Shown here piece by piece: positions 32,152-32,561 of a stretch of 32,610 nt of DNA (position 1 is the first letter of the stretch; each line of letters begins with the position of its first letter). Both the position numbers and the translations under genes were made by a program. The stretch is from positions 212,610 to 245,219 of the forward strand of contig NW_003526940.1 in the NCBI RefSeq assembly GCF_000181795.1, in the 5' to 3' direction. The notes under the pieces are model-generated. The model had not been told where the DNA came from. It saw only the letters and a list, made by a program, of their open reading frames with translations, and searched no databases. The stretch is from Trichinella spiralis. Lineage: Eukaryota.

Positions 32152-32561
32152 ATGGCGCGTACTAAGCAAACCGCTCGCAAAAGTACTGGTGGAAAAGCCC
32201 CACGTAAGCAGTTGGCCACTAAAGCGGCTCGGATGATTGCCACCAATGCTGATAGAGTAAAGAGACCACATCGCTATCGTCCAGGGACAGTGGCTCTTCG
32301 TGAAATTCGGCGTTATCAAAAAAGTACAGAACTGTTGATCAGAAAGCTGCCATTCCAGCGTTTGGTTCGGGAAGTTGCTCAAGATTACAAAACTGAGTTG
32401 CGATTCCAATCGTCAGCAGTTTTAGCTTTACAAGAAGCGGCTGAAGCTTACCTGGTTGGCCTGTTCGAAGACACAAACTTGTGTGCTATTCACGCAAAAC
32501 GTGTCACCATTATGCCAAAGGATGTTCAGTTGGCTCGTCGTATACGGGTGAACGCGCCTAA
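32152..32561 (+). CDS. H3: Histone H3 variant (K27M S28I P30T S31N G33D G34R K37R D81E I124V); 1-nt deletion in a G run near the C-terminus
   Basis: 410 nt instead of 411. CGGGTGAACGCGCCTAA needs one more G to read RGERA*. The stem-loop follows at the normal distance. Confidence 0.9.

What the first reader, a model, noticed from the sequence alone, without database searches (positions are those of the whole stretch)
32245..32268. The same H3 variant also carries G34R, with G33D and K37R, around an intact K36
Seen: residues 31-38 are N-A-D-R-V-K-R-P against S-A-G-G-V-K-K-P. G34R is AGA at 32254-32256 (31662-31664 in the other contig). Established: G33-G34 thread a narrow channel in SETD2-type enzymes, and G34R/V/W oncohistones block K36 trimethylation in cis. 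K27M and G34R are mutually exclusive in human tumours. Inference: this tail is refractory to both antagonistic marks, K27me and K36me (the MES-2 versus MES-4/MET-1 axis in nematode germlines), and could act as an epigenetic blank-slate nucleosome.
Basis: partly seen in the sequence, partly recalled or inferred. Interest (0 to 1): 0.85.

Follow-up and report, generated by a model that had tools for sequence, protein, structure and literature searches.

The report
Worm histone carrying two cancer-type changes
The parasitic worm Trichinella spiralis has a multi-copy histone H3 gene that naturally carries both K27M and G34R, changes known from childhood brain tumours; its protein is likely made in larvae, and the changes at positions 33-34 are predicted to block lysine-36 trimethylation and likely soften the toxicity of K27M.

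Summary
Observation confirmed. The gene at 32152-32561 encodes an H3 identical to T. spiralis database proteins, with M27 I28 T30 N31 D33 R34 R37 around K36. It is intronless, has TATA/CCAAT boxes, a histone stem-loop and an H3.1-type 87-90 signature, and follows a diverged H2B. The end frameshift is an assembly error. Against the canonical H3, 7 of 9 changes fall in residues 27-37, while the rest is strongly conserved (dN/dS 0.012). One variant-family peptide appears in a published muscle-larva acetylome. Human and yeast data predict that D33/R34 block K36 trimethylation, not all methylation. K37R is favoured by SETD2 and NSD2, so it is not part of the block. In C. elegans, G34E rescues K27M sterility and a K27M G33E strain is listed from the same study, so D33/R34 likely also defuse M27. 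'Blank slate' overstates: K4, K9 and K79 are intact. D33/R34 are lineage-limited: related Trichinella units carry G33-G34, and T. pseudospiralis independently has S33/N36/R37. Function is untested. The scan had not noted this on other DNA.

The parts
32152..32561 (+). H3 variant coding sequence (copy 2); 136 codons once the one-base assembly loss near 32545 is allowed for; S87-A88-V89-L90 replication-coupled-type signature; core changes D81E and I124V only
   Evidence: identical to P0123 over residues 1-131; missing G present in run X4 contig; Pfam Histone 158 bits
32233..32265 (+). rewritten tail segment, residues 27-37: K27M, S28I, P30T, S31N, G33D, G34R, K37R; A29, A32, V35, K36 unchanged
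   Evidence: 9 non-synonymous, 4 synonymous steps here; 2 and 37 elsewhere; Fisher p 9e-6
32251..32256 (+). D33 (GAT) and R34 (AGA), the two residues that are Gly in the SETD2/NSD substrate tunnel
   Evidence: literature
32260..32265 (+). intact K36 (AAG) followed by R37 (AGA)
32040..32103 (+). promoter elements: CCAAT at -112 and TATATA at -54, like the canonical H3 (CCAAT -106/-78, TATATA -54)
   Evidence: motif match only
32594..32609 (+). histone 3' stem-loop, same 16 bases as the Rfam-called one at 31191-31206; not itself called by Rfam, it lies at the window end
31560..31812 (+). copy 1 of the variant, cut by an N gap at residue 84; G34R codon at 31662-31664; probably the same locus or an adjacent repeat unit
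30921..31231 (+). 3' part of a diverged (type II) H2B gene and its stem-loop (RF00032, 31186-31231), directly upstream of the H3 variant; frame disturbed near the contig start
   Evidence: same order in the run X4 contig and in fused model P0124
16985..17395 (+). canonical H3 of the H4/H2A/H2B/H3 quartet at 14040-17395, used as the comparison

Best explanation
This is a multi-copy histone H3 variant gene of Trichinella spiralis, likely translated and likely loaded during replication, whose D33 and R34 are predicted to shut K36 out of the SETD2/MET-1 tunnel and likely also weaken the dominant PRC2 poisoning that M27 would otherwise cause. Steps: (1) Shown: intact gene anatomy, several database copies, purifying selection everywhere except residues 27-37. 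(2) Reported once: a variant-family peptide in muscle larvae. (3) Follows from sequence: position 27 can be neither methylated nor acetylated, and S28 cannot be phosphorylated. (4) Inferred from human and yeast enzymes: little or no K36me3 and K36ac on this tail, with K36me1/2 reduced but perhaps not absent. (5) Inferred from C. elegans genetics: charged residues at 33-34 act as built-in intragenic suppressors that made M27 tolerable. The net product would be a mostly passive histone, blind to the K27/K36me3 axis but still able to carry K4, K9, K14, K18, K23 and K79 marks, diluting both domain marks in the cells that express it. Which cells is unknown. I put the sub-claim 'K36me3 is strongly reduced on this tail' at about 0.8.
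For: Gene: TATA, CCAAT, no intron, stem-loop; P0123 on 3 contigs, a second type P0028 on 3 contigs, and fused tandem model P0124. Selection: dS 0.63 to the canonical H3, dN/dS 0.012 outside 27-37 and 0.54 inside. Protein: EVAQDYK(ac)TELR, score 66.7, in Table S1 of PMC5768625; among the 289 fetched proteins that peptide is in 8, all of this family. K36 block: SETD2 tunnel fits only Gly at 33-34 (PMC4973290); every G34 substitution tested reduced K36me3 in cis (PMC5335568); NSD2 prefers G at -3 and F/G/Y at -2 (PMC11162472); G34R blocks Gcn5 acetylation of K36 (PMC7872514). Suppression: 19 of 20 C. elegans K27M suppressors were intragenic, concentrated in R26-Y54; G34E rescued sterility (PMC11621828); the strain table lists K27M G33E beside R26C, R26H and G34E. 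A sister copy in runs X16 and X18 adds R26Q, the best-established suppressor position. Recurrence: T. pseudospiralis has an independent H3 variant with S33, N36, R37 beside a diverged H2B.
Against: No Trichinella enzyme, methylation map or phenotype was examined. G34E restored K27me3 only weakly in worms and not in human cells, and a tumour with K27M and G34R in cis still lost K27me3, so R34 alone may not defuse M27. I saw G33E only as a strain-table row, not its phenotype, and E is not D, nor E the same as R. dN/dS in 27-37 is below 1, so positive selection is not shown. The order in which M27, D33 and R34 arose is unknown. The peptide is one identification and differs from the canonical peptide by 14.016 Da, the mass of a methyl group; no tail peptide and no type II H2B peptide was found in that table. 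The sister copy has 7 non-synonymous to 9 synonymous-only codons among the rows shown, with core changes, and in X18 a start that looks two bases short: part of the family may be decaying. In 3 of 3 possibly-RNA runs laid, the contigs matched the sister copy, not the window's exact copy.
Confidence: 0.45

Rival explanations
1. Relaxed constraint. The gene makes a working minor histone whose residues 27-37 no longer matter, so they drifted; the match to tumour mutations is coincidence. K36me3 would still be blocked, but as a side effect.
For: dN/dS 0.54 in 27-37, not above 1. Positions 26, 30, 37, 38 and 39 vary among family copies. Sister-copy dN/dS about 0.22. Other Trichinellida H3 paralogues change the same stretch in different ways: S33/N36/R37 in T. 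pseudospiralis, V32/A34 in Trichuris.
Against: K27M at about 5% of H3 removes most K27me3 in C. elegans, so M27 is unlikely to be neutral if Trichinella has PRC2. Residues 1-26 and the fold are almost frozen. A29, V35 and K36 are unchanged.
Confidence: 0.27
2. Active PRC2 trap. D33/R34 keep K36 unmethylated so that PRC2 engages the tail fully, I28 removes the phospho-switch, and M27 then inhibits PRC2 in trans, lowering K27me3 in a chosen cell type.
For: PRC2 reads R26, K27, A29/P30, V35 and unmodified K36, and probably not G33/G34 (PMC7725500). The window copy changes 1 of 5 contact residues and 5 of 6 non-contact residues in 26-37 (post hoc Fisher p 0.067; 0.013 if P30 is kept as in the sister copy). 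S28 phosphorylation prevents PRC2 binding to K27M (PMC6562757). K27M with G34R or G34E in cis still lowers K27me3 in human cells.
Against: P30T hits a PRC2 contact. G33E and G34E came out of a screen for loss of K27M toxicity. R26Q in the sister copy would remove a key contact. T. pseudospiralis lost K36 itself and kept K27, which fits mark avoidance rather than trapping.
Confidence: 0.15
3. A silent or dying amplified gene family with no protein role.
For: Window assembly shows frame breaks in the H3 and H2B copies; the sister copy looks degraded; an LTR element lies 1.3 kb upstream of the unit; the window's exact copy was not among the contigs of 3 possibly-RNA runs.
Against: dN/dS 0.012 over 119 codons at dS 0.61; intact P0123 and P0028 on 3 contigs each; the H3 break is absent from run X4; one peptide identification; a 96% identical partner H2B in T. 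murrelli.
Confidence: 0.07
4. K36 on the variant is methylated about normally, because a Trichinella K36 methyltransferase has a wider tunnel or because R37 compensates.
For: R37 is preferred by SETD2 and NSD2; NSD enzymes have shorter side chains lining the G34 channel, and G34R tails keep K36me1 and some me2; in one fission-yeast study G34W, M and Q did not lower K36me3.
Against: G34R lowered K36me3 in that same study and in others; here both glycines are replaced, and Gly at -3 is read strongly even in the SETD2 super-substrate.
Confidence: 0.06

Closest known systems
Human oncohistones H3 G34R/V/W and H3 K27M (PMC6562757, PMC5335568, PMC4973290, PMC11737243; passages read)
   Same: Same residues at 27 (Met) and 34 (Arg), K36 intact; same predicted in-cis loss of K36me3.
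   Different: Inherited, multi-copy gene under purifying selection, not a somatic mutation; five further changes in 28-37; H3.1-type 87-90 signature, whereas tumour G34R is almost always on H3.3.
C. elegans his-72 K27M intragenic suppressors, K27M G34E and the listed K27M G33E strain (PMC11621828; Results part 1 and 4 supplement rows read)
   Same: M27 combined in cis with a charged residue at 34 and an acidic residue at 33, in a nematode H3; the sister copy also changes R26.
   Different: Laboratory single-step mutants on H3.3 with Glu; here Asp33 and Arg34 together, naturally fixed. No phenotype is known here.
Arabidopsis H3.15 (K27H) and sperm H3.10 (PMC10426802; passages of a review read)
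   Same: Lineage-specific H3 variants whose K27 region is altered and which help remove K27me3 during reprogramming.
   Different: Those are listed with the HIRA route; this one has a replication-type gene and signature, uses Met at 27, and also alters the K36 tunnel residues. No reprogramming role is shown here.
T. pseudospiralis H3 variant KAL1233810.1 (P0288) and Trichuris H3 with A34 (P0105, P0135)
   Same: H3 paralogues in related worms with changes at 33-37 predicted to prevent K36me3; P0288 also has R37 and sits behind a diverged H2B.
   Different: K27 and S28 intact; different residues (S33/N36 or A34); the partner H2B of P0288 is not in the type II clade, so the changes look independent.
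EZHIP, the K27M-mimicking PRC2 inhibitor of placental mammals (recalled, no call)
   Same: A naturally encoded K27M-like Met; relevant only to the PRC2-trap rival.
   Different: EZHIP is not a histone; here the Met sits in a full H3.

Membership tests
Histone H3 (core histone fold) | H3 sequence and histone-fold domain | tested here: met
   Pfam PF00125 158 bits, cut-off 26.4; 93% identical to the canonical H3 of the window; PDB H3 chains at E about 1e-75
Replication-dependent histone genes | intronless gene ending in the 3' stem-loop, clustered with other histone genes | tested here: met
   continuous ORF; stem-loop at 32594-32609 identical to the Rfam-called one upstream; H2B directly upstream, and antisense H2A upstream of that in model P0124
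Replication-dependent histone genes | S-phase expression and CAF-1 deposition | not testable with these tools
   only the S87-A88-V89-L90 signature
H3.3 replacement histones | H3.3 signature at 87-90 (recalled as A-A-I-G), polyadenylated, usually intron-bearing gene | tested here: not met
   SAVL at 87-90, stem-loop, no intron; the acetylome's H3.3-type peptides are different
G34-type oncohistone behaviour | non-Gly residue at 34 with K36 intact | tested here: met
   R34, K36
G34-type oncohistone behaviour | loss of K36me3 on the same tail | not testable with these tools
   predicted from PMC5335568, PMC4973290, PMC7495481; no Trichinella enzyme or methylation data seen
K27M-type PRC2 inhibitors | R26-M27 with PRC2 contacts A29/P30, V35, K36 | tested here: inconclusive
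   R26, M27, A29, V35, K36 present, P30 changed to T in the window copy; R26Q in the sister copy of X16 and X18
K27M-type PRC2 inhibitors | dominant loss of K27me3 in trans | not testable with these tools
   needs an assay; C. elegans data suggest 33-34 changes weaken toxicity
Reprogramming H3 variants (H3.10/H3.15 kind) | position 27 region cannot take K27me3 | tested here: met
   Met at 27
Reprogramming H3 variants (H3.10/H3.15 kind) | expression restricted to germline or regenerating cells, with loss of K27me3 there | not testable with these tools
   only a whole muscle-larva peptide; no confirmed RNA holder listed
Conserved genus-wide variant | D33/R34 kept in orthologues of other species | tested here: inconclusive
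   kept in sister copies in runs of organisms A, B and C as read from the table, at dS about 0.11; absent from 12 other Trichinella H3-bearing proteins read (8 canonical, 4 S33/N36/R37), which are paralogous units; the T. murrelli type II H2B model has no H3 part

The most novel reading that the evidence does not exclude
An animal has domesticated a double oncohistone. T. spiralis fixed K27M in a dedicated histone gene unit together with the same intragenic suppressor positions (33, 34, later 26) that a C. elegans screen selected, and uses the resulting K27/K36me3-blind, tuned PRC2-dampening H3 to reset Polycomb and K36-linked (possibly DNA-methylation-linked) memory at a life-cycle stage. Related worms reached K36 avoidance independently.
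Probability: 0.2. Interest if true: 0.9.

Novelty: new variant of a known kind. Interest (0 to 1): 0.68.

Why it matters
K27M and G34R are among the most studied cancer mutations, and why they almost never occur together is open. A natural gene that carries both, under selection and apparently translated in an animal, is a ready-made test of the epistasis proposed from C. elegans suppressors: the tail can be dissected residue by residue against PRC2 and SETD2/NSD. It would also be a rare animal counterpart of the plant H3 variants that escape K27 methylation. T. spiralis has DNMT3 and DNA methylation (PMC3887316); DNMT3 reading of K36 methylation is recalled, and would link this histone to stage-specific methylation. 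If the drift rival holds, it is a curiosity of a relaxed paralogue.

Tried and rejected
No whole genome is held for this window, so copy number and the Trichinella K27/K36 enzymes could not be examined. Protein search with the tail among longer proteins listed 120 of 2201 hits, none from Trichinella, crowded out by tandem canonical fusions; no evidence either way. The near-length search scored only 8000 candidates and shows cluster representatives, so orthologues within 90% of a canonical H3 can be hidden. Sequencing runs: no RNA holder listed; 'RNA' for X15, X16 and X18 is the tool's guess. One search showed 40 rows of differences and left 27 unshown; a fuller list for the tail region was not obtained, so the sister copy's residues 33, 34 and 37 are read from the absence of rows that would have ranked among those shown, position 39 is open, and its counts are lower bounds. 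Supplements of PMC11075575 and PMC11242134 are cut in storage and gave no T. spiralis rows for SETD2, NSD or EZH2, nor expression values for this gene; uncut versions may bear on expression and on enzyme presence. PMC6556364 had nothing on this gene. The figure listing all 19 C. elegans suppressors could not be seen. No fold or complex was run: the segment is a disordered tail and no Trichinella methyltransferase sequence was on hand. Rejected: the extended C-terminus as real; K37R as part of the K36 block; the two window copies as independent support; H3.3 identity. Earlier scan notes concerned algal and viral H3 genes and did not bear on this.

Full report
Observation. The window ends in a histone H3 gene starting at 32152. 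In mature numbering its tail differs from the window's canonical H3 (16985-17395) at K27M, S28I, P30T, S31N, G33D, G34R and K37R; the only other changes in residues 1-130 are D81E and I124V. The two copies are not independent, being 99.8% identical over 582 bases on either side of an N gap. The apparent C-terminal extension is an assembly error: the run X4 contig that spans the whole stretch has an extra G at 32545, and the 136-residue protein P0123, recorded under three T. spiralis accessions, ends normally. That identity is my basis for calling the organism T. spiralis.

Gene anatomy. The gene has CCAAT and TATA motifs placed like those of the canonical H3, no intron, and a histone stem-loop at 32594-32609. 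Residues 87-90 are S-A-V-L, the replication-coupled type by recalled knowledge of H3.1 versus H3.3. It follows a diverged H2B in the window, in the X4 contig and in the fused model P0124, whose N-terminal part matches the opposite strand of H2A (47% over 102 residues). The unit thus repeats the order of the canonical quartet at 14040-17395. A second protein type, P0027/P0028 (K37, L38, R39, F90), keeps M27, I28, T30, N31, D33 and R34.

Selection. Against the canonical gene dS is 0.63. Outside residues 27-37 dN/dS is 0.012 (2 non-synonymous, 37 synonymous steps); inside it is 0.54 (9 and 4); Fisher p 9e-6. Residues 1-26 have 0 non-synonymous and 10 synonymous steps. So the gene has long been held as a working H3 while one 11-residue segment changed. 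The ratio inside the segment is below 1, so these data do not separate positive selection from release of constraint.

Expression. No confirmed RNA holder was listed. In the T. spiralis muscle-larva acetylome (PMC5768625; passages, Table S6 whole, searched rows of Table S1) one row gives EVAQDYK(ac)TELR for E5T590/Tsp_14421, score 66.7. The paper's own histone table does not list this protein. The peptide occurs in 8 of 289 fetched proteins, all of this family. Caveats: it is a single identification, it is 14.016 Da from the canonical peptide, the canonical form was not in the table, and no variant tail or type II H2B peptide was found. The same table shows K27 and K36 acetylation on an H3.3-type peptide and a type I H2B.

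Relatives. Laid contigs of 3 of the 4 runs (X15, X16, X18; organisms B, C, A) carry a sister copy about 94-95% identical. From the 40 rows shown (27 were not) it has P30, L38, F90, S102 and T130, and in X16 and X18 also Q26 and F89. No row appears at the Gly-restoring places of codons 33 and 34 or at codon 37, where a shared difference would have ranked among those shown, so D33, R34 and R37 are inferred to be kept. At dS about 0.11 that has a 0.64 chance under neutrality and is weak evidence. The X18 contig's start looks two bases short, so this sister may be broken. A search with the partner H2B gave 15 hits among 17 candidates, 10 of them Trichinella models. With cluster members, 12 proteins include the H3 tail segment: 8 are canonical at 33-37 (T. 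spiralis, britovi/murrelli, T9, T6, nativa, patagoniensis, papuae, zimbabwensis) and 4, all T. pseudospiralis, read S33-G34-V35-N36-R37. None has D33 or R34. A T. murrelli H2B is 96% identical to the partner H2B and groups with it at 100/97 support, apart from the type I H2Bs (14 rows, none dropped), so the unit probably predates the spiralis-murrelli split, but its H3 was not in that model. Trichuris suis and T. trichiura have an H3 with V32 and A34. D33/R34 are therefore lineage-limited, while changes that should prevent K36me3 recur in this order of worms.

What the changes should do. In SETD2 structures G33-G34 run through a tunnel that fits only glycine (PMC4973290, passages). All G34 substitutions tested lowered K36me3 in cis (PMC5335568, passages). 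Peptide scans show the strongest SETD2 readout at 33, 34, 35 and 38, and NSD2 preference for G at 33 and F/G/Y at 34 (PMC7495481, PMC11162472, passages). Against a complete block: G34R tails keep K36me1 and some K36me2 (PMC6562757, passages), K36me2 accumulates in fission yeast, and there G34W, M and Q did not lower K36me3 although G34R did (PMC7872514, passages). K37R belongs to both designed super-substrates, so it favours methylation. These are human and yeast enzymes. For Trichinella I saw only general statements that histone-modifying homologues exist (PMC3887316, passages) and that a SUZ12-like protein was reported by one study and not recovered by another (PMC11075575, passages).

Why with M27. 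In C. elegans, K27M at about 5% of H3 removes most K27me3 and causes sterility at 25 C; 19 of 20 suppressors were intragenic, concentrated in R26-Y54, and G34E rescued fertility while only weakly restoring K27me3 (PMC11621828, Results part 1). Its strain table lists K27M G33E next to R26C, R26H and G34E; I infer, but did not see, that G33E is one of the suppressors. The natural variant has an acidic residue at 33 and a charged one at 34, and its sister adds R26Q. This suggests that 33-34 are compensatory as well as K36-blocking. The opposite reading is open: PRC2 reads R26, A29/P30, V35 and unmodified K36 but probably not G33/G34 (PMC7725500, passages), the variant keeps most of those contacts, and a tumour with K27M and G34R in cis on H3.1 behaved as K27M-dominant (PMC11737243, passages).

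The sequence claim stands. The K36me3 block is likely (about 0.8). 'Blank slate' should be narrowed to the K27/S28/K36me3 axis, 'mutually exclusive' to 'nearly', and K37R removed from the argument. A germline role is unsupported here. I give 0.45 to a passive, self-suppressed, K27/K36me3-blind variant, 0.27 to drift in a released segment, 0.15 to an active PRC2 trap, 0.07 to a silent family and 0.06 to normal K36 methylation.

Novelty. The nearest kinds are plant H3.15 and H3.10 (PMC10426802, passages) and the tumour oncohistones. Six paper searches (top 15-25 listings of each seen) showed no title or abstract describing this Trichinella variant; the library lacks most subscription papers, so absence from print is not proven. 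Databases call it only 'histone H3, embryonic'. The scan's earlier notes held nothing on it. I class it as a new variant of a known kind, interest 0.68.

Noticed in passing
P0288, P0277, P0279, P0287 (T. pseudospiralis proteins): An independent H3 variant with V21, S33, N36, R37 and M130: K36 itself is lost, K27 kept. It follows a strongly diverged H2B. The canonical protein is recorded on a contig of the same length (883,326), so it is likely an extra gene, not the bulk H3.
   Followed up: partly
P0105, P0135, P0136 (Trichuris suis, T. trichiura): H3 with V32, A34 and A121, on several contigs and fused in one model with H2A and H4. G34A lowered K36me3 in yeast. Whether this is the main replication H3 of these whipworms is unknown.
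   Followed up: no
runs X15, X16, X18 laid on window 32165-32610: Sister copy with core changes L90F, G102S, I130T (plus R26Q, V89F in X16 and X18). In X18 the start looks like Val1 and two missing bases; if real, M27 would be the next in-frame ATG and could give a tail-less H3. One contig only.
   Followed up: partly
window 30921-31148 and P0126, P0271: Type II H2B partner with a rewritten N-terminal tail (83% identical to the canonical H2B over 107 residues), 96% identical to a T. murrelli model; it may be a co-evolving variant. The window piece has a frame disturbance near its contig start.
   Followed up: partly
window 26414-29591: LTR retrotransposon: 429-base terminal repeats 97.7% identical (26414-26841, 29163-29591), gag (PF03732) and integrase zinc-binding (PF17921) pieces in several frames, between the canonical quartet and the variant unit.
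   Followed up: partly
P0047, P0050, P0121 (unnamed metagenome proteins): Three other H3 clusters with Met at 27 but Gly at 33-34; P0121 has 4 members. Natural M27 H3 may occur in other eukaryotes.
   Followed up: no
window 25939-26178, minus strand: ORF that reads like the last membrane helix region of an ionotropic-receptor-type protein (recalled resemblance, not tested).
   Followed up: no
window 20392-20538 and 22370-22507: Two copies of a repeat of about 145 bases, 83% identical.
   Followed up: no
window 16985-17395: The canonical H3 has S31, A32, Y78 and L90, and most Trichinella species fetched share this protein exactly.
   Followed up: no
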